From contig JAWOHL010000061.1 of the NCBI GenBank assembly GCA_046485185.1, positions 1 to 62,662 of the forward strand: a stretch of 62,662 nt of DNA, in the 5' to 3' direction. The translations under genes and the position numbers were made by a program. The DNA is from Candidatus Fermentibacteraceae bacterium (GTDB taxonomy: Bacteria > Fermentibacterota > Fermentibacteria > Fermentibacterales > JCC-6). This document shows, one piece after another, positions 46-32,769 of this stretch; position 1 is the first letter of the stretch, and each line of letters starts with the position of its first letter. Under the pieces are notes generated by a model. The model made no database searches. It was not told the origin of the DNA and saw nothing but the letters and a program-made list of their open reading frames with translations.

Positions 46-882
46 TCAGGGAATGCAGACCAGCTTGACCACCTGAGTATCAGCCGTTCCGCTCAGCCTT
101 GCCAGGTAGATGCCCGGAAGCTCCGGTGTGAACATCGCCATTCCCGAAGAGACATCGATGTTCTGCACATTCCTCCCCGACAGGTCGAATATCTCCATGG
201 TGCTGCCCGGCGAAGCACCCTCGACGGTTATCATCACACTGCCCGTGAAGGGGTTGAGCTGGGGATGTATCCCGGGTTGCGGAAGAACACCGGATGTTTC
301 ACCCTCGGCTGCCGTGTTGTCGTATTGAAGCTCAACCCAGTCCCACCATGCAGTGGTTTCGCCGGCAAGAAGCCCCCACTCCCCCGCATGAACATCATCA
401 TCCGAATAGGCGTTCAACACCCATGTCTGAGAGGATTGAACGTGCTCAATCGTGAATGTCATGCTTTCGCCCATGCAGATAAAGACTACCATGTAATCTC
501 CAACGGGAAAATCGTAGTAAAGTGTCGTAAATATCTCATCAATCATGCCGTTGGAAATCCTTCGTATCCGTGCCAGGTTTGCGTCTGGTGACAGGTAGGC
601 ACACACCCCGGTATCCTGTGAGTCAAGCCTTGCTGCCACCCCAAAGGTGTGATTACCTGAGCCGTAAGCACTAACAACGCCGTCCTGGGTGATGATTTGA
701 CCAGGAAAAACCAAAGCGCTGCACATTGATTCAGTAACGCACCATGCGAAGCCACCTGAGGAATACCAGTTTGCAGGAAGACAACGTTCATCCCAACCAC
801 CAATCCCGCTGCTGAAATCGTCGTAAATCGTGACTGCAAATGCGAGGCAGACGAACACGGGCAAAACCACAAGAGCTTTCAT
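46..882 (-). CDS. Secreted protein with C-terminal T9SS/FlgD-like sorting domain (paralog 1; possible beta-sandwich passenger)
   Basis: 278 aa; N-terminal signal peptide (MKALVVLPVFVCLAFA); C-terminal 'NPF...EIFDLSGR...PGIYLARL...VKLV' CTD-type motif; ungapped paralog at 1019-1855. Confidence 0.75.
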   Translation of the reverse strand: MKALVVLPVFVCLAFAVTIYDDFSSGIGGWDERCLPANWYSSGGFAWCVTESMCSALVFPGQIITQDGVVSAYGSGNHTFGVAARLDSQDTGVCAYLSPDANLARIRRISNGMIDEIFTTLYYDFPVGDYMVVFICMGESMTFTIEHVQSSQTWVLNAYSDDDVHAGEWGLLAGETTAWWDWVELQYDNTAAEGETSGVLPQPGIHPQLNPFTGSVMITVEGASPGSTMEIFDLSGRNVQNIDVSSGMAMFTPELPGIYLARLSGTADTQVVKLVCIP

Positions 883-1018: not shown

Positions 1019-1855
1019 TCAGGGAAGGCAGACCAGCTTGACTGTTGTAGTTTCAGTCCCTGCGTACAACCGTGCCAAGTAGATTCCTGGAAGTTCCGGC
1101 GTGAACATCGCCGTCCCCGTTGATACATCGATGTTTTGAACAACCCTTCCGGACAGGTCGAACACCTCAAGGCAACTCCCTGAAGAGGCACCTTCGACAG
1201 TTATCATCACGCTTCCCGTGAAAGGGTTGAGATGGGGGAAAATGCCCGGGTGAGAAACACGGGAGCTACTTTCACCCTCTGCACCCGTGTTGTCGTACTC
1301 CATTTCCACCCAGTCCCAGCAGGCAACGGTTTCTCCGGCAAGCAGTCCCCATTCACCTGCGTGGTTGTCTATTACGGAGTAGGCATTAAGCACCCAGGTT
1401 TGGGAAGACTGAACGTGTTCGATATTGAAGGTCAGATTGCTTTCGGTACAGTTGAATATGACTATGTAGTCTCCTTCGGGAAAATTGTACATCAATGTTG
1501 TAAGTATTTCTCCCGTAGTGCCATTTTCAACTCTCCTTATCCTGGCAAGATGGTAGTCGACGGAAATGTACGCACACACGCCCAAGTCTGACGAGTCGAG
1601 TCGCGCTCCGACTCCGAATGTGTGGTCGCCTGAACCGTATGCACTGATAACCCCGTTCTGGGTGATGATCTGCCCTGGAAAAACCAAAGCGCTGCATAAA
1701 GATTCAGTACTGCACCATGCAAAACCGTCTGAGGAATACCAGCTCGCGGGCAGACAACGTTCGTCCCAGTCTGCAATCCCATCACTGAAATCGTCGTACA
1801 CAACAGAAGCTTCTGCAAAACTGGCAAGTGCAATCAACAGAATAGATAGTTTCAT
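1019..1855 (-). CDS. Secreted protein with C-terminal T9SS/FlgD-like sorting domain (paralog 2)
   Basis: Start re-assigned to ATG at 1855 (AGGAG RBS upstream; MKLSILLIALASFAEA signal); 278 aa, same length as paralog 1; ~74% identity in mature region by manual count. Confidence 0.75.
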   Translation of the reverse strand: MKLSILLIALASFAEASVVYDDFSDGIADWDERCLPASWYSSDGFAWCSTESLCSALVFPGQIITQNGVISAYGSGDHTFGVGARLDSSDLGVCAYISVDYHLARIRRVENGTTGEILTTLMYNFPEGDYIVIFNCTESNLTFNIEHVQSSQTWVLNAYSVIDNHAGEWGLLAGETVACWDWVEMEYDNTGAEGESSSRVSHPGIFPHLNPFTGSVMITVEGASSGSCLEVFDLSGRVVQNIDVSTGTAMFTPELPGIYLARLYAGTETTTVKLVCLP

Positions 1856-2030
1856 TTGTGTTCTCCTTATATATACGGTCATTTGTTTCACTGATGCATT
1901 AATCCTATATCAAGGAGTTGCAGAAAAGTAAAGACCCTCGAAAGTGCATTCCTCTGGTAACCCTCTTGACCCCTGCTCCCCGATTCACTAATTCATGGGC
2001 CTGAGGAGTCATTTCAAAAAAGGGGGGACC

Positions 2031-3935
2031 ATGAGGGAGACCTGGGGAAGCAGGCGGGCCTTCATTCTGGCGGCAATTGGAAGCGCCATAGGGCTCGGCA
2101 ACATCTGGAGATTCCCGTACATCGCGTACGCCAACGGCGGCGGAGCCTTTCTGGTGGCCTACTTCGCGTGCCTTTTCATCGCCGGCATTCCAGTTCTGAT
2201 GCTCGAGTTCGGCCTGGGACACAGGTACAGGCAGGCCGCTCCCGGAGCATTCAGGGGTATAAAGCCGTCACTTGAATGGTTTGGGTGGATGGCGGCGCTG
2301 CTTTCCTTCGTGATCGTTGTTTACTACGCCATAATCATGGGCTGGTGCATGAACTACACCTACGAGGCCGCCAGACAGGGATGGAGGCAGGAACCAGGTC
2401 TTCACGCCGACCCTTCCGTAGCCCTTGCCCCCACTGATCTTGCGGACATGGATGTTCTCACGCCGGTGCCCCTCGAGATGGAAGGAACTCCTTTCGTCTC
2501 GCCCGTGAATCGTGTTTCCGGAGTTGTGGCTGTCGAACCCACGACCCTTGTCGTACATGAGGGCAACATCTACGGTTTTGCTTCAAGGGCACAGGCCGGG
2601 GCTTTCGCCGACAACCCCAGTATCGATGAGAACCTTTCGATCGCGGCTATGGGAGGAGATGAAACAAGGCTTCTGGCTGGAATTCCTGCAGACCTTCTGG
2701 GCAGGCCCTTCATTTCTCCGGTGGACGGTTCCGAGGGGGTCGTGAGGAACATCTCCACCATTCTGATAGCCTACGACGGCGTTCTCTACGGGTTTGACAG
2801 CGTGGACGAAGCCAGCACCTTCATGGGTTCGCCGGGGGACTTCTTCTACAACCGGTTCCTCGGGCTGACTTCTTCGCCGTGGGACCTTGGAAGCTTCCGC
2901 TGGCCCCTTTTCATAGGCTTCGCCCTATCATGGGTTTGGATCATCGCAAGCATCTGGAAGGGAACCAAAACCGTGGGCCGCGTCGTCTACTACACGGTTA
3001 TCATCCCGTGGGTGCTGCTTCTTGTCTTCATAATTCGTGGGGTTACACTTCCGGGTGCGGCGGTGGGGCTTTCCTATTACCTCACGCCGGACTGGAGCCG
3101 GCTTCTCAGCGGCGACATCTGGCTGGCGGCCCTTACACAGGTTTTCTTCAGCCTGAGCGTTGGGTTCGGAGTGATGATCGCTTACGGAAGCTTTCTGCCC
3201 AAGAAAGCCAATCTGGCGGGAAACGCCTTTATCATCGGAATAGCCGATGCGCTGACCGCCTTCTGTGGGGGGCTTGCTGTCTTCAGCGCGCTTGGGTTCC
3301 AGGCGGCGCGTCTGGGAGTTCCCGTCAGCGAGGTCGTGAAGTCGGGACCAGGCCTTGCGTTCGTCGCCTACCCGCACATCATCTCCAGCCTTCCGGGGGC
3401 GGCTTTCTTCGGGGTTCTGTTCTTCGTCATGCTGCTCACATTGGCCGTTGATTCGGCTTTCAGCCTTGTTGAGGGGGTCACCGCTTCCCTGAAGGACAAG
3501 TGGGGGCTCTCCCACAAGCGGGTCAACCTGATCGTGGGCGGGACGGCGTTCCTGCTGGGGCTTCCCATGCTGACGGGCGCGGGGCTCTACATTCTGGACA
3601 TCGTGGACCACTTCATGAACAGTGTTGCCCTGGTGCTTGTTGTTCTTGGCCAGCTTCTGATCATAGGGTGGGCTTTCCCTGCCGAGAAGATGCGGACCTA
3701 CATCAACTCGAACTCGGGCATGCGCATAGGGTGGTGGTGGAACACCAGCGTAAGGTGGATCATACCCATGGGGATGTTCTGGATGCTGGCAAGCGAGCTT
3801 CAGGCCAGGGGGCTTTCAGCCTACGGCAACTTCGGGCTCAGAAGCCAGGACTTCCTTCTGGGTTGGCTGGTGGTTCTGATCCTGCCGGTTGCGGGAGACA
3901 TGCTGGCTTCCAGGAAAGGGGTCTGGAAGGACTAG
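2031..3935 (+). CDS. Sodium-dependent transporter, NSS/SNF family, with ~150-aa insertion in extracellular loop 2
   Basis: RETWGSRxxFILAAIGSAIGLGNIWRFPY, NGGGAF, QVFFSLSVGFG, GPGLAFVAYP are NSS hallmarks; ATG 2031 follows AGGGGG. Confidence 0.93.
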   Translation: MRETWGSRRAFILAAIGSAIGLGNIWRFPYIAYANGGGAFLVAYFACLFIAGIPVLMLEFGLGHRYRQAAPGAFRGIKPSLEWFGWMAALLSFVIVVYYAIIMGWCMNYTYEAARQGWRQEPGLHADPSVALAPTDLADMDVLTPVPLEMEGTPFVSPVNRVSGVVAVEPTTLVVHEGNIYGFASRAQAGAFADNPSIDENLSIAAMGGDETRLLAGIPADLLGRPFISPVDGSEGVVRNISTILIAYDGVLYGFDSVDEASTFMGSPGDFFYNRFLGLTSSPWDLGSFRWPLFIGFALSWVWIIASIWKGTKTVGRVVYYTVIIPWVLLLVFIIRGVTLPGAAVGLSYYLTPDWSRLLSGDIWLAALTQVFFSLSVGFGVMIAYGSFLPKKANLAGNAFIIGIADALTAFCGGLAVFSALGFQAARLGVPVSEVVKSGPGLAFVAYPHIISSLPGAAFFGVLFFVMLLTLAVDSAFSLVEGVTASLKDKWGLSHKRVNLIVGGTAFLLGLPMLTGAGLYILDIVDHFMNSVALVLVVLGQLLIIGWAFPAEKMRTYINSNSGMRIGWWWNTSVRWIIPMGMFWMLASELQARGLSAYGNFGLRSQDFLLGWLVVLILPVAGDMLASRKGVWKD

Positions 3936-5038
3936 TAGTTTCCAAGGGCCGGGCAGGTCGAGCAGTCCGATGAAACGCATTCGAGGTCAGCCCTGACCAA
4001 AAAGCTGAAACCCGAGTCGGGCTCGCACCTGTAACCGAAACCGCTCATGTACTGGTAAACTATGCCCGCCCTCTCCAGGTCGTACGGCTCGTACGCAACG
4101 GCGAACATCCTGAACCTCCTGGCGTCGGCCGCCGTCACCGCGAGCTGCTGCCACTGCGACAGCACCGCTTCCGATCTGGCGTCGAACCAGGATGGTCCGA
4201 TCACGCCCGAAAGCTCGGGGATCCTTTCGAGGGCTTCGCCCCAGCGCGAAGAATCCGTCTCGATAACCACAAGGGGGGGCATCTCGGCACTTGCGAGGTC
4301 GGCGGCAAGTTCAAGGCCCCTGTCACCGGTCATGCCGGTGAATACCAGAAGGTAAAGCGAGTCCTGGTTCATGGCGTTCCACACCCCGGGGTCTTCAGCG
4401 GCGTTCACCTGTCTGGGGTCGACGGGGGCTCTGTAATACCCTGCAAGCCCCCTGACACCGATGACCATGAAGTAGACGGCAACGAAAACGGCAAGAATGC
4501 GGGCTGCCACAGTGAACCATTTGCGGGCCGTGAAGAGCCCCGCAACCGAAAGGGGCAGCATGTAGACCGTTGTTCCGACGAAGAACCCCGCGAAGAGCAG
4601 GGCGCCATTCAGGGCACCCCCCGCATCGAACGCGCTTGTGAGGGCGATGAGGAATGCGGGGCAGATCGAGAAGCCCGTGAGTATTCCGAGAAGGAAGGGG
4701 CTGCCCGTGAACTTCGTCCAGCGTGATACTCCGCAGCCCCCGCATTTTTTGTTGACCCTCAGCGTGCTGACCAGAAGGAACACGCTGAAGAGAATGTACC
4801 CCGCAAAGGAGAGGGGGATCCTGATACTGGAAGGAATGCTGCCCCCCAGCATGCCTATGACCGCCCCGAAGCAGACGTAGGCCGCGAACCTTCCCAGGTT
4901 CAGGGTGAGCAGGACCAGAAGCGACTGCCGGCCGCTTCTCTTCTCGCTGAACAGGTACGCCGCATAGACCGGCCCGCACGAGGCCAGGCAGGACACACCC
5001 GTGGCGAGCCCGAGGCTCAGCCCCTCTGCAAGCGCCAC
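3932..5038 (-). CDS. DsbD_2/TauE-SafE-like multi-pass membrane protein with C-terminal soluble Cys-rich domain
   Basis: GTG start with GGGGAG RBS; SCLASCGP and GFSICPAF motifs in two hydrophobic repeats; C-terminal CEPD...CVSSDCSTCP. Confidence 0.65.
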   Translation of the reverse strand: MALAEGLSLGLATGVSCLASCGPVYAAYLFSEKRSGRQSLLVLLTLNLGRFAAYVCFGAVIGMLGGSIPSSIRIPLSFAGYILFSVFLLVSTLRVNKKCGGCGVSRWTKFTGSPFLLGILTGFSICPAFLIALTSAFDAGGALNGALLFAGFFVGTTVYMLPLSVAGLFTARKWFTVAARILAVFVAVYFMVIGVRGLAGYYRAPVDPRQVNAAEDPGVWNAMNQDSLYLLVFTGMTGDRGLELAADLASAEMPPLVVIETDSSRWGEALERIPELSGVIGPSWFDARSEAVLSQWQQLAVTAADARRFRMFAVAYEPYDLERAGIVYQYMSGFGYRCEPDSGFSFLVRADLECVSSDCSTCPALGNY

Positions 5039-5062
5039 TGTCTCCCCTTTCCGGGTTGAGGT

Positions 5063-6268
5063 TTAGATGTGGGCCGCAGGGTAGAAGGCCAAACCGCCCT
5101 GAAAGGAGTTCCAAACTTCGGTGTACTCCAGTTCGGAGGCCTGGCGGCGGATGAGGAACCATGCGGACAGACCGTTCTTCATCCTGTATTCCAGACCACC
5201 CCCGTAGGTTTCACGTCTGCGGGTGCCACCGGTGCCGGTGATGCTGCTGGGGCCCTCCCATATCCTTCCGTTCACGAGAACCGAAAGACCCCGGTAAACG
5301 CCCACACGGGTTTCCAGTTCGCCGAACCGGGTTCTGATGGAGCTTTCGGTGCCCTGGCCGTAAAGGCTGACGCTGGAGGGGTGTTCGCCCCAACCCGTGA
5401 AGGCGTACCTGAGCCTGGCGCCTGCCTGGTAGGCAGCAAGCCTGGTCACGTCTTCATCGAAGTCGATGGTCTGGCACACCGTGAAGTTGAAGGTGAGGTT
5501 CGGGGCAAGGGTCTGAACGGCCCGCACCCTTGCGGTGGCCCTTTCCGGAAGTGGTGTGCCGTTGTGGTCGTCGCCGGCCTGAACCGACCATGCAAGGTCG
5601 GCCATGACCTGTGTGCGGGTCGGCAGTGTCCGGGGGGCAAGGCTGGCCGCGAAGTCCACCCGGCTGTAGGTCTCGTCGAAATCGGCCCCTTCGATCGCGG
5701 TGTTGTGGCTCATGCCGCTGACGCCAAGGTCGACGCCAAGGGGAGTGTACCAGACGGCGCCGCCCCCGGCCCTGGTTTCTGCCCAGGCGAGGTCCTGGTC
5801 ATCCTGGTCGGACACGCTTCGGTCCCAGTAGCGGCCGAAGGCGCTCAGCCTGACCGTTCCGGGAAGTTCCCAGCCCAGGTTGAGACCGGGGCGCACCGAG
5901 CTTGTGCGCTCGCCGATCCCCTCGGATCGGGGCAGAACAACGCCGGAGCTGTCAAAGTCGGTGGTGAAGCGGAAATCGGGCCGCACCGTGAGGCCGCCTG
6001 CTCGGTAGCGCACTGAAAGAGTTGTTTCAGAGCGGTTCCGGGAAAAACGGGGAAGCGCCGCATTGTCTTCAGAGGCCTTCCTGTAGGTCTGGTCGAGTTG
6101 GAAGCGCCACGGGCCCTCGAACAGCCGGACTCCGGCGGATGCGTCGAGGTAGGCGCCGCCCCCGTAATTCACGCTGTCATTTGCCACTGATACTCGGGCG
6201 TACTCTTCAACACCCAGTGCCATGCAGCTCGCGAGAAGCCCCCAGAGCAGAACGATGACGGTTTTCAT
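5063..6268 (-). CDS. Putative outer-membrane beta-barrel protein
   Basis: True start ATG 6268 overlaps the upstream stop (TGATG); signal peptide MKTVIVLLWGLLASCMALG; many amphipathic alternating strands with aromatic residues; ends ...FQGGLAFYPAAHI. Confidence 0.6.
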   Translation of the reverse strand: MKTVIVLLWGLLASCMALGVEEYARVSVANDSVNYGGGAYLDASAGVRLFEGPWRFQLDQTYRKASEDNAALPRFSRNRSETTLSVRYRAGGLTVRPDFRFTTDFDSSGVVLPRSEGIGERTSSVRPGLNLGWELPGTVRLSAFGRYWDRSVSDQDDQDLAWAETRAGGGAVWYTPLGVDLGVSGMSHNTAIEGADFDETYSRVDFAASLAPRTLPTRTQVMADLAWSVQAGDDHNGTPLPERATARVRAVQTLAPNLTFNFTVCQTIDFDEDVTRLAAYQAGARLRYAFTGWGEHPSSVSLYGQGTESSIRTRFGELETRVGVYRGLSVLVNGRIWEGPSSITGTGGTRRRETYGGGLEYRMKNGLSAWFLIRRQASELEYTEVWNSFQGGLAFYPAAHI

Positions 6269-6510
6269 CAGAACACCGCTCCCTTCGGGCAGATCTCGAC
6301 GCAGCGGTAGCAGAGGCGGCAGAGCGTGGGGTTGATCACGGCGTCGCCATCCACGACCTCGATGGCGTTGTAGGGGCAGACCTTCTCGCATTCGCCGCAG
6401 CCTATGCAGAGGTCGTTGTCCACCACGAGACCCGTGTTATCTGTGGGGGCGGAACACGCGGCCAGCATAAGCAGGACCGCCAGTAACAGAGCCTCAGTGA
6501 ATCGCGTCAT
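6268..6510 (-). CDS. Lipoprotein 2[4Fe-4S] ferredoxin
   Basis: Lipobox LAAC after a hydrophobic stretch; CIGCGECEKVCP and CRLCYRCVEICP. Confidence 0.85.
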   Translation of the reverse strand: MTRFTEALLLAVLLMLAACSAPTDNTGLVVDNDLCIGCGECEKVCPYNAIEVVDGDAVINPTLCRLCYRCVEICPKGAVF

Positions 6511-6727
6511 AAGTGCACACCCCCTGGCAGAGCCCGCAGCCTATGCACTTGGCCGGGTCGATGCTGGATTTGCCGTTTTCAATCTCTATTGCATCAACGG
6601 GACAGACCCTGAAGCAGTCGCCGCAGCCCGAGCAGTTGTCGGACTCGACCCAGTAGCGAACCGCACCCACCGCTATGGCTGCCGTAAGAAACAGAACCAA
6701 AAGAATCCCCCCCCTGAAACGCATCAT
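6494..6727 (-). CDS. Signal-peptide-bearing 2[4Fe-4S] ferredoxin
   Basis: MMRFRGGILLVLFLTAAIAVGA signal; CSGCGDCFRVCP and CIGCGLCQGVCT. Confidence 0.85.
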   Translation of the reverse strand: MMRFRGGILLVLFLTAAIAVGAVRYWVESDNCSGCGDCFRVCPVDAIEIENGKSSIDPAKCIGCGLCQGVCTYDAIH

Positions 6728-7140
6728 TTCACCTCGAATTCGGCTTCTATCGGGATTTCTTCCTCGTTCACCCCGTAAAGCTCAAGGTTTTCCTCACCGA
6801 CCGTCACAATTGCGCCCACAGGGCACGATGCCACGCACAAACCGCAGAGGATGCACTTCTCGGGGTCGATCAAGGCCTTGTTGTCTTCGGTCATGCTTAT
6901 GGCGTCCACGGGGCATGTGGAGAGACAGAGCTGGCAGCCGATGCATGCCTCGGGGTTTATGATGTAGTCTTCGTTGAGCTCGACCGAACACTCCGTTGGG
7001 GCAACCTCGGCCATGATCCGGCCGAAGGATTTGACCCGGAGAGACTGGAAATCACCCTCGACGGGCGCCCATCTCAGTGTGAACAACCCGGCCGCAGCGG
7101 CAGCAGCGAGGGCAAGAACAATGAACGGGTGCTTTTTCAT
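6724..7140 (-). CDS. Signal-peptide-bearing 2[4Fe-4S] ferredoxin with FN3-like flanking strands
   Basis: Start ATG 7140 (GGAAAAGGAAAG upstream); MKKHPFIVLALAAAAAAG signal; CIGCQLCLSTCP and CILCGLCVASCP. Confidence 0.82.
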   Translation of the reverse strand: MKKHPFIVLALAAAAAAGLFTLRWAPVEGDFQSLRVKSFGRIMAEVAPTECSVELNEDYIINPEACIGCQLCLSTCPVDAISMTEDNKALIDPEKCILCGLCVASCPVGAIVTVGEENLELYGVNEEEIPIEAEFEVK

Positions 7141-7160
7141 TCTTTCCTTTTCCTTCCGGG

Positions 7161-8132
7161 TCAGCGCTGGGCTGGAGGAGGTGGGACTTCGGGCTGGGTT
7201 CCCGCGGGAAGCACCAGCCTTCTCACGGCCTGATTGTGCTGATAGTATTCGTCGGGGTTGATCACATCCCTGTAGTTCCAGCACTCAAGAAAACATTGTC
7301 CGCAGTTGATGCACAGGTCGTAATTGATGTAGACCATCCCGGGCAGTCCGTAGACGTTGTCGAGGTCCTGCCAGATGGCGTCGACCGGGCAGCCCGGCCC
7401 GGTGTACGCCCCGGAATCGTTGTACTCCATGAGCAGGGCACAGGTGGTGCAGGCCCCTTCGGGAGCGGTCGTCATGCATTTCAGACAACCCCCGAAAGGA
7501 ATGAAGTCGTAAATGTAAGTCACGATCTGCATGGGCTCGGATGAAACCTGTATGTCCTCGGAGGCTTCGGTCTCACCGAAGAAAGCCCTGATCCCCACGT
7601 AGTAGCCCTCGCCCATGCGGCCGCCTTCGATGGCGTTCACGGGGCAGGCGTCTTCGCAAAGGCCGCAGCTTCCGCAGAGGTCCTCATTAATCACTGCAAG
7701 GCCGTTCACGACCTCGATGGCCCTGTTGGGGAGGATGGGGCACGCAGCCTCGCAAAGGCCGCACCCGATGCAGGCTTCGGAGATTACCCGGGGCTGGAGG
7801 AACACCAGGGCTGACTCGGCGGGGGCGGGTATCTCGCCCGCAACAACGGCGCTGTTCCAGTTGTCTGTGGTGATGGGCGAGGTGGAAAGCCTTGCCTGGT
7901 ACCACGCGGCGCCCTCCACGGGCGTGAAGAAGACCGTGAACGCCTTGTACTCGCCACCCTTTATCCAGGTGTAGACCGAACCCAGTTCGGGGGACATGGC
8001 GGTGAAGCCCGTGTCCACAAGTACGGCCCCCGGTTGAACCGCCGCCGGCGCCATGGGGCGCGGGGTCTCGGTAAGGCACGCCGCCATGACCGCCAGAGCC
8101 ACAGTCAGGGCCACAACAATTCCCTTGAGCAT
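7161..8132 (-). CDS. Lipoprotein polyferredoxin (FN3-like domain plus two ferredoxin modules)
   Basis: ATG 8132 with GGAGG RBS; lipobox MAAC; CIGCGLCEAACP/CGSCGLCEDACP; second module CLKC..CTTC..CP..CINCGQCFLEC. Confidence 0.82.
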   Translation of the reverse strand: MLKGIVVALTVALAVMAACLTETPRPMAPAAVQPGAVLVDTGFTAMSPELGSVYTWIKGGEYKAFTVFFTPVEGAAWYQARLSTSPITTDNWNSAVVAGEIPAPAESALVFLQPRVISEACIGCGLCEAACPILPNRAIEVVNGLAVINEDLCGSCGLCEDACPVNAIEGGRMGEGYYVGIRAFFGETEASEDIQVSSEPMQIVTYIYDFIPFGGCLKCMTTAPEGACTTCALLMEYNDSGAYTGPGCPVDAIWQDLDNVYGLPGMVYINYDLCINCGQCFLECWNYRDVINPDEYYQHNQAVRRLVLPAGTQPEVPPPPAQR

Positions 8133-8285
8133 TATTGCCCTCCGTTTCAACGGATGTATCGTTCAAATGAAGATAGTATTCCCATGCACGTTCGGGTTCC
8201 CGGTGGAAACCACTGAACTTGTATACTATCTAATGGAATGATACCGAAGGCAAGGTTTCTGGAAACAAGAGGAAGATGGTGATCC

Positions 8286-8648
8286 GTGAAAATCGCCCTT
8301 GAACCCGAGGTCTCTCGCAAACGGCTTTTCGAAGGCGAGGGAGAGGCGGTCATCGAAAGCCTCTTCGCTCCCGGCGACTTCAGTGTTGGCATAAATGTCA
8401 GGCTGTGCGCCAGGATAACTATTCCGGCCGGCGGCTCCATAGGCTACCACGTGCACCGGGGGGAGGACGAGCTTTACTACATACTCTCCGGAAGCGGAAT
8501 GGTGAACGACGCCGGGGAAACCCGGGACGTCTTTCCCGGTTCGGCCATTCTCACAAGAAGCGGGGAAGGGCATGAACTCGTAAATACCGGCTCGGGGGAG
8601 CTGGTTCTTCTGGCGGTGATCCCGGTCTGGTCCGGAGGGAAACGGTAA
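8286..8648 (+). CDS. Cupin domain protein
   Basis: GTG start; IGYHVHRGEDELYYILSGSG and GEGHELVNTG cupin motifs. Confidence 0.88.
   Translation: MKIALEPEVSRKRLFEGEGEAVIESLFAPGDFSVGINVRLCARITIPAGGSIGYHVHRGEDELYYILSGSGMVNDAGETRDVFPGSAILTRSGEGHELVNTGSGELVLLAVIPVWSGGKR
8558..8626 (+). repeat. Direct repeat copy A (3' end of cupin gene)
   Basis: 69 bp, 61/69 identical to 10441-10509. Confidence 0.9.
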
Positions 8649-8706: not shown

Positions 8707-10026
8707 TTATCGGATCACGGTCACTTTACCTGAGACAAGTTCTCCTTCGCAGGCTATCCCGTAGAAGTACAAGCCGGAGGGGAACCCCCCGGCGCTGACT
8801 CTCACGGTATGGCTGCCTGACTCGAGAATGCCGTCGTGGAGAGTGGATACCCTTCTCCCGGCGCAGTCGAAAAGAGACATGCGCACATTCCCGGGGGCTG
8901 CCATTTCGAAGGTTATCCCGATCTCGCCGGATGGGTCGACGGAGGCGTGATGGCTCCCGAGAATACTTGCGGGAACGGCTGAACTGTATTCGCCACCGTC
9001 CCGTCCGTCCCAATTGTGGTGCATGGCGGAACACAGGAAATCAAGCGCGATCGGGAACCTCTCGGTGAGTTTGTCGAAGTGTCCTCCTTCGAAGACCTGG
9101 TACTCGTAGTCGATTCCCATCACGTCAAGTGAGCAGGCGAAAGCGTTGGAGGAAGGCATGATGTAGAACTGGTCCTGGGTGCCGGCATCGAAGTACACCC
9201 TGCCGTTATGCCTCCAGGGCGGAACAGCCAGGTTCTGGACCAGGTTGGGCATGTTGTGCTGCATCCAGAGTTCCCATACCCCTGGTATGAGGTTGGCGTA
9301 CGGATCCAGTGGAAGGTCAACGTAGAAGGGCGGATTGGTGAGATTTGGGGAAAAGGCCCCGGACATGCTGAACAGCACTGCATTGGCGAACCCGGCGCTG
9401 GGTGTGTAGAACCAGGGAGGACCCTGCTGCCCCATGGCCTGGAGTTCGGCAAGCACACCATAAACGTTGATCATGAGCATGCTGGGCAGGTCGAGACCGG
9501 AGGCGCATACCCCCGCGGCGCAGCAGTAAAGGTCAGGGTGCTGCCCGTAGTACATGAGCGCCCCGTAACCGCCCATGGAGTGACCCATGAGGGCTCTCTT
9601 CATCCGGCTTGGAATGGTTCTGAAACTGGCGTCCGTCCAGGCGATGAGGTCTGTGGACATGTAACCCTCCATATCCCCGTAAAGCGCTGAGCTTGTGTAG
9701 AATGACGCCGGGTACGGGGATGAGAATCCGTCGGGCCTCACCACGATGACCGGTTTGATCTGATGGGTTTCGATCATCTCGTCCAGGGTTGCCACCAGTG
9801 TGGGGAATTCGTTGTGGCCGAGAAGTATCCCGGCACCGTGGAAATAGTAGATCACGGGATACCTTCCGATCCCCTGGGGCTGGTAGCCCTCCGGAAGGTA
9901 AACCTGCACGCTCTTCTCCTGACCCAGCGCCGGGCTGAAGAACGAAGTGTTCACTATGGTCCCCCCCGCGAACACTTCCAGAGGCAGAGCCAGAAGGAGC
10001 ATGGCTGTGAGCAGAACCCTGTACAT
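8707..10026 (-). CDS. Secreted alpha/beta-hydrolase (putative esterase family) with C-terminal sorting-type domain
   Basis: Start ATG 10026, signal MYRVLLTAMLLLALPLEVFA; YLPEGY..YPVIYYFHG, GHSMGG nucleophile elbow, DAGTQD, GGH; C-terminal FDCAGRRV...SGLYFY. Confidence 0.88.
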   Translation of the reverse strand: MYRVLLTAMLLLALPLEVFAGGTIVNTSFFSPALGQEKSVQVYLPEGYQPQGIGRYPVIYYFHGAGILLGHNEFPTLVATLDEMIETHQIKPVIVVRPDGFSSPYPASFYTSSALYGDMEGYMSTDLIAWTDASFRTIPSRMKRALMGHSMGGYGALMYYGQHPDLYCCAAGVCASGLDLPSMLMINVYGVLAELQAMGQQGPPWFYTPSAGFANAVLFSMSGAFSPNLTNPPFYVDLPLDPYANLIPGVWELWMQHNMPNLVQNLAVPPWRHNGRVYFDAGTQDQFYIMPSSNAFACSLDVMGIDYEYQVFEGGHFDKLTERFPIALDFLCSAMHHNWDGRDGGEYSSAVPASILGSHHASVDPSGEIGITFEMAAPGNVRMSLFDCAGRRVSTLHDGILESGSHTVRVSAGGFPSGLYFYGIACEGELVSGKVTVIR

Positions 10027-10440
10027 CTCCGTACACCCCTCTCTCAAGACATGCTGCTGACAGCCGGTGTTTCCGGCCTGTTCCGGCGGCGCCGACACTG
10101 ATACCGCTCGGAGGGGAAGTAGCCTGAGACAAGCAAGTTAGAGGATGTACCCCATGTTCTTGTCGGTGCTGCCGACAGCAGCCCCTGGTGGTGTATATAC
10201 GCCATCGCATATGATGTCAATAACAGTGATTCTTTACGTGTTGTATATGGTAAAGGATGATGATATTCTTATATATTCAATAATATTGGGTCTTTGTGTA
10301 TTGTATTATCTAAATGCCATATACAACACTAGTATGGAATACTATATGTACATAATTACCGTTTCTGTACGTAATGCTGTTCGCACCTGTCTGCTCCCTG
10401 TTCCGTGCCAGTCCATGACCCCCCCACTCAGTTCTGTCAT

Positions 10441-10673: not shown

Positions 10674-10762
10674 GGAGGGGTGCCGGAGCGGTTGAACGGG
10701 ACGGTCTCGAAAACCGTTGACTCCTTTGGGGTCCGTGGGTTCGAATCCCACCTCCTCCGCCA
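10674..10762 (+). tRNA. tRNA-Ser (anticodon CGA)
   Basis: Acceptor GGAGGGG/CTCCTCC-G-CCA; anticodon arm ACGGT-CTCGAAA-ACCGT; long variable arm; GGTTCGAATCC T-loop; encoded CCA. Confidence 0.97.
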
Positions 10763-10984: not shown

Positions 10985-12520
10985 TTACCGGGCCACGACC
11001 ATGCGGGTGTTGCGTGAGCTGCCCGCGGAAGTCACCCTGATGGTGTAAACACCCATGGGAAGTGAGGAGGCATCCACCGAAACCATGTTCTCACCCGGTG
11101 TGAGGAGGATAGTCTCCCGGTGCACCGACCTGCCGGCGATGTCGAATACCTGGAGGCCGGCCTGAGCCGGTGACAGTGCCTGAATCCTGACCATTGCCGA
11201 GGAGGAGACCGGGTTGGGCTGGACGCTGAGTGGTGCGCCCGAAAAAACCGGAGCACTGGCGGCATCGCCGATGCCGGTTTCGACCGGGTCTGCAAGGTAG
11301 GCAACCGCTGCGATGCATGCCTTTGCCATGTTGGTTCCGAAGGGGAAGTACTGCATGTAGTTAGCCATCAGGTCGGTCGTCTGGTGGTAGTAAGGGTTGC
11401 TGAAGACCTGCCGCTCGATGTTAAGCATGGCGGCGTAGCCGCTGTACCAGAAACTGGCGTGATCGCTGGCGCCGGAAGGGCTTGAGGCGACCTCCATTGA
11501 AAGAGCCGGAACGTAGGTGTCGCTTATGGCCTGGAAGGCAACGCCAAGACCTGTGGATGCGGTGTTGTAGTGGAGCCATGCGATGTCGTTCCCTGCGGGG
11601 CCGTAGAATATCATGTCCATGTTGACCACGCCCATGATGCTGTCGCCGGCCGCGGCTGCCTGAGTGGCGTAGTATTCGCTGCCGTAGAGGCCCTGTTCCT
11701 CGCCGCCGAAGAGCATGTACTTGATCGTGTACTCGAACTGGTACTGGCTCATGAGCCTTGCGGCCTCGACCACCGCTGCGGAACCGCTGCCGTTGTCATC
11801 GGCGCCCGGGGCGTTGTAGGAGGGGTTGGGTGAAGTGCTGTCGAGGTGGCCGCAGATGACCCAGTAGCGGTTGGGGTAGAGCGTGCCGGTCTGGGTCGCT
11901 ATCACATTCTGGCAGTTGTAGCTTCCCATCGGAAAGGGCTGTATCTCGACTTCGAGCCCCATGCCTTCGAACCTTTCCTGGCTCCAGGCGCACGCGGTGT
12001 CGAACCCGTCGGAGTTGGAGTGCCGGGTCAGGTAGTTCTGATAGTTCGTGGTGTAGTTGATGAGCGAGTCCTGGTTGACGGCAGCCACGATGTCGGCCAC
12101 AACAGCGTCGTAACCGCTGCGCATTGGTATGGGGATGGGGTGCGCCGGAGCTCTGTTCTCCCGCAGGGGCTGGATGTGGTGAATGCCCGGACGCACGAAG
12201 TCTTCCGGCATGGGTCCCGAAAGCCTGACAATCACTGTATTGCCGTCGCGGTAGACCGGTTCGCCGATCCCGGCTATGTCAAGCATGCCGGCTTCGGTCC
12301 GGACTGTCACCAGCGCGAAGTCCGCAAGACCCCTTGCGCCCGAGTCGAGAACCCGTGAGTCGGCGGTGGGGAAGCCCAGACCAACTATGTGATCATGCGC
12401 CCTGTAGACCACTATGTATCCGTCACGTGCCTCGGCTTCAGGGTCGGGGATGATGAAGAGACCCGCGCCGAAAGCCTGAACCGCAATGAGGACGAGCGCA
12501 AAAAAAAGTGCTTTCTTCAT
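10985..12520 (-). CDS. Secreted M28 family aminopeptidase with C-terminal sorting-type domain
   Basis: Signal peptide; GHLDS, GADDNGSG, GEEQGL, NMDMI, SDH, YHQTTD; C-terminal PNPV...FDIAGR...GVYTIRV. Confidence 0.92.
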   Translation of the reverse strand: MKKALFFALVLIAVQAFGAGLFIIPDPEAEARDGYIVVYRAHDHIVGLGFPTADSRVLDSGARGLADFALVTVRTEAGMLDIAGIGEPVYRDGNTVIVRLSGPMPEDFVRPGIHHIQPLRENRAPAHPIPIPMRSGYDAVVADIVAAVNQDSLINYTTNYQNYLTRHSNSDGFDTACAWSQERFEGMGLEVEIQPFPMGSYNCQNVIATQTGTLYPNRYWVICGHLDSTSPNPSYNAPGADDNGSGSAAVVEAARLMSQYQFEYTIKYMLFGGEEQGLYGSEYYATQAAAAGDSIMGVVNMDMIFYGPAGNDIAWLHYNTASTGLGVAFQAISDTYVPALSMEVASSPSGASDHASFWYSGYAAMLNIERQVFSNPYYHQTTDLMANYMQYFPFGTNMAKACIAAVAYLADPVETGIGDAASAPVFSGAPLSVQPNPVSSSAMVRIQALSPAQAGLQVFDIAGRSVHRETILLTPGENMVSVDASSLPMGVYTIRVTSAGSSRNTRMVVAR

Positions 12521-32601: not shown

Positions 32602-32769
32602 TCAGGGAGCTTCGATGGCCTCGACCGGGCATACAGCGGCACACGCGCCGCAATCGATACAGGTCGCCGGATCGATGGAGTATTTGTCTCCCTCGCTGAT
32701 GGCGTCCACGGGGCATTCGCTCATGCAGGCACCGCAGGCGATGCATGCATCGGTGATCTTGTAGGCCAT
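32602..32769 (-). CDS. fdx: Cytoplasmic clostridial-type 2[4Fe-4S] ferredoxin
   Basis: MAYKITDACIACGACMSECP...CIDCGACAAVCP, 55 aa, GGAGG RBS, no signal peptide. Confidence 0.95.
   Translation of the reverse strand: MAYKITDACIACGACMSECPVDAISEGDKYSIDPATCIDCGACAAVCPVEAIEAP

What the first reader, a model, noticed from the sequence alone, without database searches (positions are those of the whole stretch)
3932..8132. Six-gene operon of exported ferredoxins + beta-barrel + Cys membrane protein: candidate haem-free 'porin-ferredoxin' envelope electron conduit
SEEN: six co-oriented genes with coupled or very short junctions (20-nt gap, ATGA overlap, 17-nt overlap, TGATG overlap, 24-nt gap). Four consecutive genes each encode CxxCxxCxxxC ferredoxin pairs behind an N-terminal export signal (two lipoboxes, two SPI-like), giving about 8-10 potential [4Fe-4S] clusters. 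A probable outer-membrane beta-barrel and a DsbD_2/TauE-like inner-membrane protein with conserved Cys follow. No CxxCH haem motif occurs. KNOWN: trans-envelope electron transfer is usually built from multihaem cytochromes threaded through a porin (MtrCAB/Pcc type); small dicluster ferredoxins are normally cytoplasmic, like the signal-less one at 32602-32769. INFERENCE: this could be an Fe-S analogue of porin-cytochrome conduits (disposal of fermentative electrons, interspecies transfer, or S/metal reduction), or a periplasmic redox/O2-sensing or metal-handling system. I do not recognise this arrangement as a described system.
Basis: partly seen in the sequence, partly recalled or inferred. 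Interest (0 to 1): 0.87.

Follow-up and report, generated by a model that had tools for sequence, protein, structure and literature searches.

The report
Exported ferredoxin chain with outer-membrane barrel
A fermenting, uncultured bacterium (Candidatus Fermentibacteria) keeps a six-gene operon that sends four iron-sulfur ferredoxins out of the cytoplasm beside an outer-membrane barrel and a cysteine-relay membrane protein, which looks like a haem-free electron route across the cell envelope that I could not find described in any paper I could search.

Summary
On the minus strand, six tightly coupled genes (8132-3932) encode four Fer4 dicluster proteins, a 401-aa protein and a DsbD_2 membrane protein.

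- **Ferredoxins:** each has an N-terminal export signal (g1 and g4 with an invariant lipobox Cys, g2 and g3 SPI-like). They carry 40 invariant Fe-S cysteines, enough for 10 [4Fe-4S] clusters, and no CxxCH.
- **g5:** AlphaFold models it as a plugless barrel of about 20 strands. It resembles TonB-receptor barrels and MtrB in fold only, and its sequence family is an orphan.
- **g6:** a 6-TM protein with a CcdA-like fold and seven invariant Cys. The positive-inside rule places them on the cytoplasmic side, in the membrane and on the periplasmic side.
- **Conservation:** gene order is identical in all 13 independent Fermentibacteria loci checked. dN/dS is 0.05-0.15.
- **Relatives:** a related cluster sits on contigs whose g6-like protein is named Fibrobacter sp./Chitinispirillaceae by its sources. 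Its g3-type ferredoxin has a canonical twin-arginine signal, and a NapH-like polyferredoxin lies in the same gene run.

Best reading (about 0.5): a haem-free Fe-S electron path from the inner membrane to the cell surface, with g6 as thiol-reductant or maturation factor. No biochemical or expression data exist. How Fe-S clusters reach Sec/Lol-type signal proteins is unresolved. I found no paper describing the system.

The parts
7161..8132 (-). g1: lipoprotein (signal MLKGIVVALTVALAVMAA|C19). It has an N-terminal beta-rich module with an inserted 2x[4Fe-4S] ferredoxin domain (C121-C163). A second, atypical dicluster domain follows (C216, C219, C231, C248-P; C274xxC277xxC280xxxC284), then a Pro-rich tail. 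The mature protein has pI 4.1. It is the candidate surface-exposed end of the chain.
   Evidence: C19 and 16 Fe-S Cys are invariant in 13/13 orthologs. An acidic residue at +3 to +5 after the lipid Cys is present in all orthologs. The SD GGAGG lies 6 nt before ATG 8132. The upstream TTG 8150 ('KRRAIMLK') is that SD read in frame, and the frame is not kept in L006/L011/L012.
6724..7140 (-). g2: SPI-type signal (MKKHPFIVLALAAAAAAG). It has the same beta-module with inserted 2x[4Fe-4S] ferredoxin as the N-terminal half of g1. pI is 4.05. It is a candidate periplasmic carrier.
   Evidence: Pfam Fer4_21 scores 70 bits. Eight Cys are invariant in 13/13. hhalign of g2 against g1 gives probability 99.7%, E 1e-25, covering the flanking beta strands as well. 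No ortholog has RR.
6494..6727 (-). g3: minimal 2x[4Fe-4S] ferredoxin (about 55 aa when mature) behind the signal MMRFRGGILLVLFLTAAIAV. The last motif ends VCTY instead of CP. It is a candidate periplasmic carrier.
   Evidence: Eight Cys are invariant (C71 in 13/14). The n-region is RxR in this clade, RR in L001/L016-L019 and KR/KK in L004/L015/L020. The orthologous protein in L062/L066 has MNRRTILR / MDRRSLLK Tat motifs and the same VC[ST]Y ending.
6268..6510 (-). g4: lipoprotein 2x[4Fe-4S] ferredoxin (MTRFTEALLLAVLLMLAA|C19, then a conserved C-x-x-P-x-[DE]-N). It ends directly at CPKGAVF and is translationally coupled (TGATG) to the barrel gene. It is the candidate barrel-associated ferredoxin.
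   Evidence: The lipobox Cys and eight Fe-S Cys are invariant in 14/14. The gene always lies immediately upstream of the barrel gene, also in L062/L066.
5063..6268 (-). g5: outer-membrane beta-barrel of about 20 strands with no plug domain and an SPI-type signal (…CMALG|VEE). By strand alternation its lumen is Arg-rich. Its sequence family is an orphan.
   Evidence: There is no Pfam or NCBIfam hit. The AlphaFold2 model has pLDDT 72.9 and 20 long antiparallel strands. Foldseek against the PDB finds Cir, ZnuD and OprC barrels at TM about 0.6, with MtrB (6r2q_B) at rank 3, E 9e-6. A profile search of 1.84 billion representatives finds only 23 hits, all of its own family. Lumen-facing positions hold 25 R against 17 D+E. 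No Cys is conserved.
3932..5038 (-). g6: 6-TM DsbD_2 protein with a CcdA-like fold, N-out/C-out by the positive-inside rule. Invariant Cys are C17xxxC21 (TM1), C99xxC102 (K/R-rich cytoplasmic loop) and C126-P127 (break in TM4). A periplasmic alpha/beta domain (225-350) and a flexible tail with C359xxC362-P follow. It is a candidate thiol-disulfide relay or maturation factor.
   Evidence: Pfam DsbD_2 scores 84 bits. The AlphaFold2 model has pLDDT 76.6, and above 90 for the C-terminal domain. Foldseek finds CcdA 5vkv at probability 0.96, TM 0.53, 22% identity, and also RnfE and NqrD. Seven Cys are invariant in 45 and in 14 sequences. The TM1, TM4 and loop Cys are kept in the Fibrobacterota-attributed homologs, but the tail Cys are not.
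8238..8265 (-). Weak sigma-70-like promoter match upstream of g1, in the 150-nt gap to the divergent cupin gene.
   Evidence: One search finds 9/12 matches, which is no more than shuffles give. It is listed only as a possible start of the transcription unit.

Best explanation
The operon encodes an extracytoplasmic chain of ten [4Fe-4S] clusters carried by four acidic ferredoxin-domain proteins. Two are lipoproteins (g1, g4) and two are soluble exported proteins (g2, g3). They are encoded with an orphan outer-membrane barrel of about 20 strands (g5) and a 6-TM cysteine-relay protein with a CcdA-like fold (g6).

Most likely it is a haem-free electron path from the inner membrane to the cell surface of an obligately fermentative, cytochrome-poor anaerobe.

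Proposed route (inferred):
1. Electrons enter the periplasm through the NapH/NosR-like membrane protein. It is encoded 3-6 kb away in every relative, and in the same gene run in the Fibrobacterota-type cluster.
2. They hop through g2 and g3 to the lipoprotein g4.
3. g4 is translationally coupled to g5 and would sit in or at its Arg-lined lumen.
4. They emerge on g1 (four clusters plus a beta-rich module), which reduces an external acceptor. Candidates are S0/polysulfide, Fe(III), humics or a partner cell.

g6 would pass reducing equivalents from a cytoplasmic CxxC, through the membrane Cys, to a periplasmic CxxC. That would keep the 40 cysteines of the Sec/Lol-exported apoproteins reduced, so clusters can be built or repaired outside the cytoplasm. 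This is analogous to CcdA in cytochrome c maturation.

Shown: gene structure, motifs, signals, the barrel and CcdA-like folds, conservation, purifying selection.

Inferred: cluster occupancy, localisation, order of carriers, direction of electron flow, the acceptor and the role of g6.
For: - **Ferredoxin motifs.** Four consecutive Fer4 dicluster proteins carry 40 invariant Fe-S Cys.
- **Export signals.** Every ortholog of g1-g5 has an N-terminal export signal. The lipobox Cys is invariant in g1 (13/13) and g4 (14/14), and g2, g3 and g5 have AxA-type sites.
- **Internal contrast.** The cytoplasmic ferredoxin in the same window (32602-32769, minus strand) has no N-terminal extension.
- **Tat signal in relatives.** The g3-type protein in L062/L066 has canonical twin-arginine signals. 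Tat is the route used for folded, cofactor-loaded exported proteins (review PMC13673990). This supports both periplasmic location and real Fe-S content.
- **Barrel.** g5 models as a large plugless barrel, with MtrB among the top fold hits. Its lumen-facing positions are Arg-rich, while all four ferredoxins have pI 4.05-4.45.
- **g6.** It has a CcdA-like fold and Cys placed on both sides of and within the membrane.
- **Conservation.** The six genes are in the same order in 13/13 loci spanning the phylum, with dN/dS 0.05-0.15.
- **Membrane partner.** A NapH/NosR-like membrane protein lies nearby in 14/14 loci that have enough flank. A NapH-like polyferredoxin sits directly after the g6 homolog in L062/L063/L066/L067.
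- **Physiology.** Fermentibacteria are described as strict fermenters without respiratory chains, possibly using S0 as an electron sink, and they live in sulfidic, Fe-rich anoxic habitats (PMC5030696; PMC5763382).
Against: - There is no experimental or expression evidence. No RNA run holds the locus.
- In this window none of the four ferredoxins has a twin-arginine motif. Known exported Fe-S proteins use Tat, so cluster insertion is unexplained.
- A dithiol relay is too oxidising to feed low-potential clusters, so g6 cannot itself be the electron entry unless it holds a metal centre.
- No catalytic terminal reductase is encoded, and no acceptor is known.
- The barrel-ferredoxin complex could not be modelled.
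- The barrel of the Fibrobacterota-type cluster shows no sequence similarity to g5.
- In this window the NapH-like gene is not present. It would lie beyond the left edge.
Confidence: 0.5

Rival explanations
1. Periplasm-confined redox module. The ferredoxins are exported and hold Fe-S clusters, but they serve a reaction inside the periplasm. Examples are reduction of polysulfide, S0 or another small oxidant that enters through g5. g5 would be an ordinary substrate porin and no electrons would cross the outer membrane.
For: The same facts on export signals, Fe-S motifs and the NapH-like partner apply. NapGH, NosR and DsrMKJOP-type systems all end in the periplasm (established knowledge). Fermentibacteria were proposed to use S0 or polysulfide (PMC5030696).
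Against: No catalytic subunit is encoded. A plugless 20-strand barrel is much larger than needed for small solutes. g4 is a lipoprotein always fused in register to the barrel gene. g1 carries acidic residues just after the lipid Cys in all orthologs, which in Bacteroidota marks surface export (recalled knowledge, not tested here).
Confidence: 0.2
2. Metal, sulfide or Fe-S trafficking. The Cys-rich exported proteins and the Cys-lined LysE/DsbD-superfamily membrane protein would form a relay of the MerP/MerT kind. It would capture aqueous FeS clusters, Fe(II) or a thiophilic toxic metal at the surface and pass it inward (or outward), with g5 as the entry pore.
For: g6 has Cys on the periplasmic tail, in TM1/TM4 and in a cytoplasmic loop. 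Its superfamily includes metal transporters, and sources name it 'TauE/SafE exporter'. The habitats are rich in FeS. The neighbouring NapH-like protein carries three periplasmic four-Cys repeats.
Against: The 40 Cys are in strict CxxCxxCxxxCP ferredoxin spacing, with the flanking P/AI residues of stable cluster-binding folds. Such folds bury their clusters and are not known to hand them on. The Tat signal on the g3-type protein of L062/L066 implies a preloaded cofactor.
Confidence: 0.1
3. Envelope redox defence or sensing. The low-potential periplasmic Fe-S proteins, kept reduced through g6 and the NapH-like protein, would scavenge O2, ROS or nitrosative oxidants before they reach the cytoplasm of a strict anaerobe. 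Alternatively they would signal oxidant exposure.
For: The organisms are strict anaerobes that decline on O2 or nitrate exposure (PMC5763382). CcdA/DsbD-type proteins feed periplasmic reductive defence systems (established knowledge). g6 has a CcdA-like fold.
Against: This reading gives no role to a large outer-membrane barrel coupled to a ferredoxin lipoprotein. Ten clusters on four proteins is extravagant for scavenging. No regulator or sensor kinase is linked in Fermentibacteria loci.
Confidence: 0.1
4. The N-terminal hydrophobic segments are membrane anchors that leave the ferredoxin domains in the cytoplasm. That would give a membrane-tethered cytoplasmic polyferredoxin set, and the barrel and g6 would be functionally unrelated neighbours.
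For: This would remove the problem of Fe-S insertion without Tat. The g3 h-region is 17-18 residues, borderline for a TM anchor.
Against: The basic n-regions predict N-in/C-out. The lipobox Cys is invariant in g1 and g4. True Tat signals occur in relatives. Translational coupling and strict co-conservation with an outer-membrane barrel hold across two phyla.
Confidence: 0.05

Closest known systems
Porin-cytochrome trans-outer-membrane conduits (MtrCAB of Shewanella, PioAB/MtoAB, Geobacter Pcc/Ext)
   Same: A large outer-membrane barrel is encoded next to, and coupled with, small exported redox proteins, including lipoproteins. The many closely spaced one-electron cofactors are enough to span the envelope. 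MtrB is among the best fold matches of g5.
   Different: There are no haem motifs at all; the cofactors would be [4Fe-4S]. The barrel has about 20 rather than 26 strands and no sequence relation to MtrB, PioB or OmbB. None of the proteins is homologous to Mtr or Pcc parts. Maturation would need an Fe-S route rather than a haem route outside the cytoplasm.
NapGH / NosR / NrfCD / DsrO-type periplasmic Fe-S electron-transfer modules
   Same: Ferredoxin-type poly-[4Fe-4S] proteins on the periplasmic side are paired with a NapH/NosR-family membrane protein. The g3-type protein in L062/L066 has a Tat signal like NapG.
   Different: In this window all four ferredoxins have Sec/Lol-type signals. Two are lipoproteins. 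There is a dedicated outer-membrane barrel. No reductase partner (Nap, Nos, Nrf, Dsr) is encoded. NCBIfam NapG, NapF and NapH scores are far below their cutoffs.
CcdA / DsbD / ScsB membrane thiol-disulfide electron transporters
   Same: g6 has a 6-TM inverted-repeat core. It has Cys in TM1 and a Cys-Pro at a break in TM4. It hits Pfam DsbD_2, and its best interpretable fold match is CcdA 5vkv. The logic resembles cytochrome c maturation: reductant is exported to keep the apoprotein Cys reduced.
   Different: It belongs to DsbD_2 (PF13386), not DsbD (PF02683). It has a CxxxC rather than a single Cys in TM1, and its own cytoplasmic-loop CxxC. Its periplasmic alpha/beta domain has no PDB match, and the C-terminal CxxCP tail is limited to Fermentibacteria. 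No thioredoxin-fold partner is encoded.
Shewanella extracellular DMSO reductase DmsEFAB (recalled knowledge, not tested here)
   Same: It is a precedent for an Fe-S protein (DmsB) working on the outer face of the outer membrane, linked to a barrel.
   Different: DmsAB leaves the cytoplasm by Tat and crosses the outer membrane by type II secretion. The wire through the barrel is a decahaem cytochrome, not a ferredoxin.

Membership tests
Porin-cytochrome conduit (MtrCAB/Pcc type) | Multihaem c-type cytochromes (several CxxCH motifs) as the wire | tested here: not met
   There are zero CxxCH motifs in all six proteins.
Porin-cytochrome conduit (MtrCAB/Pcc type) | Adjacent outer-membrane barrel of 20 or more strands without a plug | tested here: met
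   The AlphaFold2 model has 20 long strands, pLDDT 72.9. Foldseek finds TonB-receptor barrels and MtrB 6r2q_B at E 9e-6.
Porin-cytochrome conduit (MtrCAB/Pcc type) | Barrel homologous in sequence to MtrB/PioB/OmbB families | tested here: not met
   There is no Pfam or NCBIfam hit. The profile search of 1.84e9 proteins returns only its own 23-member family.
Porin-cytochrome conduit (MtrCAB/Pcc type) | Redox protein threaded into the barrel and electron flow across the outer membrane | not testable with these tools
   No multimer modelling and no experiments were possible. Only charge complementarity was seen.
Bacterial-type 2x[4Fe-4S] ferredoxin (Pfam Fer4 clan) | Two CxxCxxCxxxC(P) motifs per domain, above the Pfam gathering score | tested here: met
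   Fer4, Fer4_21 and Fer4_10 scores lie above their cutoffs for g1-g4. All motif Cys are invariant.
Bacterial-type 2x[4Fe-4S] ferredoxin (Pfam Fer4 clan) | Actual Fe-S cluster occupancy | not testable with these tools
   This needs EPR, UV-visible spectra or iron analysis.
Tat-exported periplasmic polyferredoxins (NapG/NrfC/DsrO/HybA) | Twin-arginine signal peptide | tested here: not met
   In the window, g1 has MLKG, g2 MKKH, g3 MMRFRGG and g4 MTRF. RR is present in g3 of 5/14 orthologs and in L062/L066. The wider family is therefore mixed.
Tat-exported periplasmic polyferredoxins (NapG/NrfC/DsrO/HybA) | Score above the NCBIfam cutoff for NapG, NapF or similar models | tested here: not met
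   NapG scores 26 bits against a cutoff of 269, and napF 30 against 102.
CcdA/DsbD thiol-disulfide transporter | 6-TM inverted repeat with a redox Cys in TM1 and in TM4 next to Pro | tested here: met
   C17/C21 lie in TM1 and C126-P127 lie at the TM4 break. The Foldseek match to CcdA 5vkv has probability 0.96.
CcdA/DsbD thiol-disulfide transporter | Match to Pfam DsbD (PF02683), or sequence match to solved CcdA/DsbD | tested here: not met
   Only DsbD_2 PF13386 is hit. The profile finds no PDB sequence at E<=1.
CcdA/DsbD thiol-disulfide transporter | Transfers electrons from cytoplasmic thioredoxin to a periplasmic thiol-redox partner | not testable with these tools
   This is inferred only from the Cys placement on both faces.
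TauE/SafE sulfite exporter (name given by the sources) | Match to the TauE family model | tested here: not met
   The name appears in source annotations. Pfam gives only DsbD_2 and NCBIfam gives nothing.

The most novel reading that the evidence does not exclude
[4Fe-4S] clusters are assembled outside the cytoplasm on ferredoxin apoproteins that leave by the Sec and lipoprotein routes. g6 would act as the dedicated maturation factor, relaying reductant (or Fe/S) through its cytoplasmic, membrane and periplasmic cysteines. The finished ten-cluster chain would pass through a 20-strand barrel to a surface lipoprotein. That would be the first haem-free, Fe-S-only electron wire across a diderm envelope.
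Probability: 0.3. Interest if true: 0.92.

Novelty: categorically new. Interest (0 to 1): 0.8.

Why it matters
Every known electron conduit across a Gram-negative outer membrane is built from haem proteins. Exported Fe-S proteins are textbook Tat clients because clusters are made in the cytoplasm.

If this operon does what its anatomy suggests, three things follow:
- An obligate 'fermenter' common in digesters, methane seeps and sulfidic sediments can move electrons to or from its surroundings.
- Extracellular electron transfer does not require cytochromes, so haem-motif surveys of EET potential miss it.
- Fe-S proteins can be matured outside the cytoplasm in anoxic, sulfidic settings.

The system is small. 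It has six genes and parts of 6-42 kDa (mature g3 about 5.9 kDa, g5 about 42 kDa). It is therefore directly testable by heterologous expression, anaerobic reconstitution and structure determination.

Tried and rejected
- **Alternative g1 start.** TTG 8150 gives 'MKRRAIMLK', which looks Tat-like. I rejected it because the RR codons are the GGAGG Shine-Dalgarno sequence read in frame. That frame is not kept in close relatives (L006, L011, L012), although L014 shares a similar in-frame KRR. ATG 8132 has ideal spacing to the SD.
- **g5 as a lipoprotein.** The 'LLASC' motif is rejected as a lipobox, because the Cys is present in only 5/13 orthologs.
- **FN3 assignment for the g1/g2 beta modules.** Pfam finds nothing even at E<=5. 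'FN3-like' remains a guess from the sequence pattern.
- **g6 C-terminal domain.** It has no Pfam hit, no PDB sequence hit and no convincing fold hit.
- **Barrel homology across phyla.** hhalign of the g5 profile against the L066 barrel-sized protein gives probability 2%.
- **TatC.** This is uninformative.
- **Terminator.** The terminator-like site at 4008-4024 lies inside g6, so I discount it.
- **Literature.** Searches on Fermentibacteria plus ferredoxin, periplasmic ferredoxin plus Sec, lipoprotein ferredoxin plus EET, PF13386/DsbD_2, and Fermentibacter plus DIET or electrode found no description of the system.

Full report
**1. What is there**

The finding lies on the minus strand. ORF listing and the sequence itself give six genes:

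| Gene | Coordinates | Length |
|---|---|---|
| g1 | 8132..7161 | 323 aa |
| g2 | 7140..6724 | 138 aa |
| g3 | 6727..6494 | 77 aa |
| g4 | 6510..6268 | 80 aa |
| g5 | 6268..5063 | 401 aa |
| g6 | 5038..3932 | 368 aa |

Pfam finds Fer4-clan dicluster domains in g1-g4. It finds nothing in g5, and DsbD_2 (84 bits) in the first 191 residues of g6. NCBIfam assigns none of the six to a named equivalog. No CxxCH motif occurs. A canonical 55-aa ferredoxin without any N-terminal extension lies at 32602-32769, on the minus strand. It is a useful internal contrast.

**2. Lineage and conservation**

A scan of species-representative genomes with a g5 profile hit only records titled Candidatus Fermentibacteria, Fermentibacteraceae or candidate division Hyd24-12, plus unnamed 'uncultured bacterium' MAGs. 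The closest hits were 94-95% identical. g6 homologs that carry a name are named Fermentibacter, Sabulitectum, Aegiribacteria and the like.

In every locus with enough sequence, the six genes occur in the same order and orientation. That is 13 independent loci, with g5 identity running from 95% down to 31%.

- All 40 ferredoxin cysteines are invariant, except one position in one sequence.
- The lipobox cysteines of g1 and g4 are invariant.
- Seven cysteines of g6 are invariant.
- g5 has no conserved cysteine.
- dN/dS against the two nearest relatives is 0.05-0.15 for every gene.

These are real genes under purifying selection, inherited as a unit.

**3. The ferredoxins and their signals**

g1 has two dicluster domains. 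The first is canonical. The second has a stretched first motif (C216xxC219...C231...C248-P) and CxxCxxCxxxC without the Pro. That gives four clusters. g2, g3 and g4 have two each, so the total is ten.

g2 is a paralog of the N-terminal module of g1. The match includes the beta strands that flank the inserted ferredoxin domain (hhalign probability 99.7%). Whether that module is FN3-like could not be shown, because Pfam finds nothing.

All four mature proteins are very acidic (pI 4.05-4.45).

The N-termini across orthologs are as follows:
- g1 and g4 have short basic n-regions, 12-15-residue h-regions and an invariant lipobox Cys.
- g2, g3 and g5 have AxA-type cleavage sites.
- The basic n-regions predict N-in/C-out. 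Even if a signal were left uncleaved, the ferredoxin domain would lie outside the cytoplasm.

**4. Tat or Sec?**

In this window no protein has a twin-arginine. An upstream TTG would give g1 the sequence 'MKRRAIMLK'. However, the two Arg codons are the GGAGG ribosome-binding site read in frame. That frame is not kept in close relatives, except L014. ATG 8132 therefore stands.

The wider family is mixed:
- g3 carries RR in 5 of 14 Fermentibacteria orthologs.
- It carries RxR in the window's clade.
- It carries KR or KK in a third clade.
- g1 carries RR in three orthologs.
- g2, g4 and g5 never do.

So the family combines Tat-type and Sec/Lol-type signals, and the window's clade has only the latter. 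Known exported Fe-S proteins receive their clusters in the cytoplasm and use Tat (PMC13673990). How g1, g2 and g4 (and here g3) acquire clusters is the central open point.

**5. The barrel**

With an 11-sequence alignment, AlphaFold2 models g5 as 20 long antiparallel strands with short turns and no plug (pLDDT 72.9).

Foldseek against the PDB returns 22-strand TonB-receptor barrels (Cir, ZnuD, OprC; TM about 0.6). MtrB of the Mtr complex comes at rank 3, and usher pores follow.

The strands show the alternating pattern of a membrane barrel. The inferred lumen face carries 25 Arg against 17 Asp+Glu, which would suit acidic partners. This is weak evidence.

A profile search of 1.84 billion representative proteins found 23 hits, all from the family itself or fragments of it. 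It is an orphan family.

**6. g6**

AlphaFold2 (45 sequences, pLDDT 76.6) gives six TM helices, with TM4 broken at C126-P127. A confident alpha/beta domain follows (residues 225-350, pLDDT above 90), then a disordered tail.

All K/R-rich loops fall on one side. This gives an N-out/C-out topology with the following Cys placement:
- C17xxxC21 in TM1;
- C99xxC102 in a cytoplasmic loop;
- C126 in TM4;
- C359xxC362-P on the periplasmic tail.

The only interpretable fold match is the membrane electron transporter CcdA (5vkv, probability 0.96, 22% identity). RnfE and NqrD come next. There is no sequence match to any solved structure.

The source name 'sulfite exporter TauE/SafE' is not backed by any model hit.

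**7. Beyond the finding's coordinates**

*NapH/NosR-like neighbour.* In 14 of 14 related loci with enough flank, a NapH/NosR-like membrane protein lies 3-6 kb beyond g6 on the other strand, together with two proteins of about 155 aa. It hits Pfam Fer4_5. It has CxCP and CxxCP membrane motifs, a signal peptide and three periplasmic four-Cys repeats. In the 95%-identical relative L008 the order is g6, SNF transporter, methyltransferase, T9SS-tail protein, NapH-like gene. In the window the corresponding gene would lie just left of base 1.

*Related cluster on other contigs.* A metagenome scan with the g6 profile found distant homologs (31-40% identity) on contigs L062, L063, L066 and L067. The L062 protein is named Fibrobacter sp. 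/ Chitinispirillaceae by its sources. Read mainly from L066, the cluster runs:

| Order | Gene product |
|---|---|
| 1 | signal-peptide ferredoxin |
| 2 | lipoprotein ferredoxin |
| 3 | g3-type ferredoxin with a canonical Tat signal (MDRRSLLKLLLGAG..., MNRRTILRMIAGAG...) |
| 4 | g4-type lipoprotein ferredoxin |
| 5 | barrel-sized protein of about 415 aa |
| 6 | DsbD_2 protein |
| 7 | true NapH-like polyferredoxin of 525 aa |
| 8 | ThiF-family protein (L066 only) |

The TM1, TM4 and loop cysteines of g6 are kept there, but the tail cysteines are not. The barrel-sized protein shows no sequence similarity to g5.

This second lineage supports three points:
- The ferredoxins are extracytoplasmic.
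- At least one of them is exported with its cofactor.
- The NapH-like membrane protein belongs to the system.

**8. Mechanism**

The best-supported reading is a haem-free electron path across the envelope:

1. The NapH-like protein carries electrons across the inner membrane.
2. g2 and g3 carry them through the periplasm.
3. g4 is anchored at, and probably seated in, the g5 barrel.
4. g1 is the four-cluster outer end.

g6 most plausibly exports reducing equivalents as a thiol-disulfide relay, by analogy with CcdA in cytochrome c maturation. That would keep 40 cysteines reduced, so that clusters can form or be repaired in an anoxic periplasm rich in sulfide and Fe(II). Clostridial apoferredoxins reconstitute chemically from Fe(II), sulfide and a thiol; this is established knowledge that I recall, not something tested here.

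The organisms are described as strict fermenters without respiratory chains. They may use S0 as an electron sink and live in sulfidic, iron-rich anoxic habitats (PMC5030696; PMC5763382). An outlet for surplus reducing power would make physiological sense.

I put this reading at about 0.5. The rivals are:
- a periplasm-confined redox module with g5 as a plain porin (0.2);
- metal or Fe-S trafficking (0.1);
- envelope redox defence or sensing (0.1);
- cytoplasmic membrane-anchored ferredoxins (0.05).

**9. Comparison with known systems**

The operon works like a porin-cytochrome conduit, but it is not a member of that group. It has no haem motifs, and neither the barrel nor the carriers are homologous to Mtr or Pcc parts.

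It resembles NapGH/NosR modules in pairing periplasmic ferredoxins with a NapH-family membrane protein. It differs in lacking their Tat signals in this window, lacking a reductase partner, and adding lipoproteins and a barrel.

g6 resembles CcdA in fold and cysteine logic, but it is a DsbD_2 protein with extra cysteine sites and a new periplasmic domain.

**10. Novelty and limits**

I found no paper that describes this arrangement.

Earlier notes of this same scan report the same operon in other Fermentibacteria genomes, and a related cluster in Cloacimonadota and Fibrobacterota. I treated them as leads only. I confirmed the Fibrobacterota-type cluster and the NapH-like neighbour myself. I could not test the Cloacimonadota claim.

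Everything here is computational. There is no expression, localisation or cofactor evidence.

Noticed in passing
L008:9753-11114 (minus strand); homologs in L001, L006 and L009-L020. Expected just left of window base 1.: This is a NapH/NosR-like membrane protein (Pfam Fer4_5) with a signal peptide. It has three periplasmic repeats of a four-Cys motif (CPLG..P.EAC......CAL..D.DG..RCDNP) and CxCP/CxxCP membrane motifs. Two unannotated proteins of about 155 aa lie next to it. The group sits 3-6 kb from g6 in 14/14 related loci. It is probably the inner-membrane partner of the operon.
   Followed up: partly
L066:3700-10188 and L062:53-5333: These contigs carry a related cluster; L062's g6-like protein is named Fibrobacter sp./Chitinispirillaceae by its sources. 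It has four signal-bearing ferredoxins, one with a canonical Tat signal. A barrel-sized protein of about 415 aa follows, with no sequence similarity to g5. Then come a DsbD_2-like protein and a 525-aa NapH-like polyferredoxin, and in L066 a ThiF-family gene.
   Followed up: partly
window 1995-3935 (+): This SNF-family (sodium:neurotransmitter symporter) gene is convergent with g6. Its Pfam match is split into two stretches, which fits a large insertion in an outer loop. An earlier first-reader note calls the insert two Cys-less YHS-like repeats at 2385-2838. The gene is syntenic with the operon and the NapH-like gene in several Fermentibacteria loci.
   Followed up: no
window 46-882 (-) and 1019-1891 (-): These are two tandem paralogs (278 and 290 aa) with signal peptides and C-terminal T9SS-type sorting tails. 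One copy occupies the same position in L008 (Por_Secre_tail, weak hit). Function is unknown.
   Followed up: no
window 8286-8648 (+): This small Cupin_2 protein is transcribed divergently from g1. The same arrangement occurs in L004, L006 and L007, so it may share the operon's control region.
   Followed up: no
L001:10527-11762; also L004 and L016-L020: A CitE-like (HpcH/HpaI, citrate-lyase beta) protein with an N-terminal ACP-like domain lies directly downstream of g6, on the same strand, in three of the four clades. In L004 it overlaps the end of g6. It is absent at this position in the window's clade.
   Followed up: no
window 8707-10098 (-) and 10985-12520 (-); tRNA at 10674-10759 (+): An esterase-family protein and an M28-peptidase-like protein lie here. 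The M28 and Por_Secre_tail call was seen for the syntenic gene in L006, not tested on the window protein. Both have C-terminal sequences resembling T9SS sorting tails, which would fit a diderm FCB-type envelope. A tRNA gene lies between them (Rfam, 54 bits).
   Followed up: no
window 32602-32769 (-): This is a canonical 55-aa clostridial-type 2x[4Fe-4S] ferredoxin without any signal. It is the ordinary cytoplasmic counterpart of g3 and g4.
   Followed up: yes
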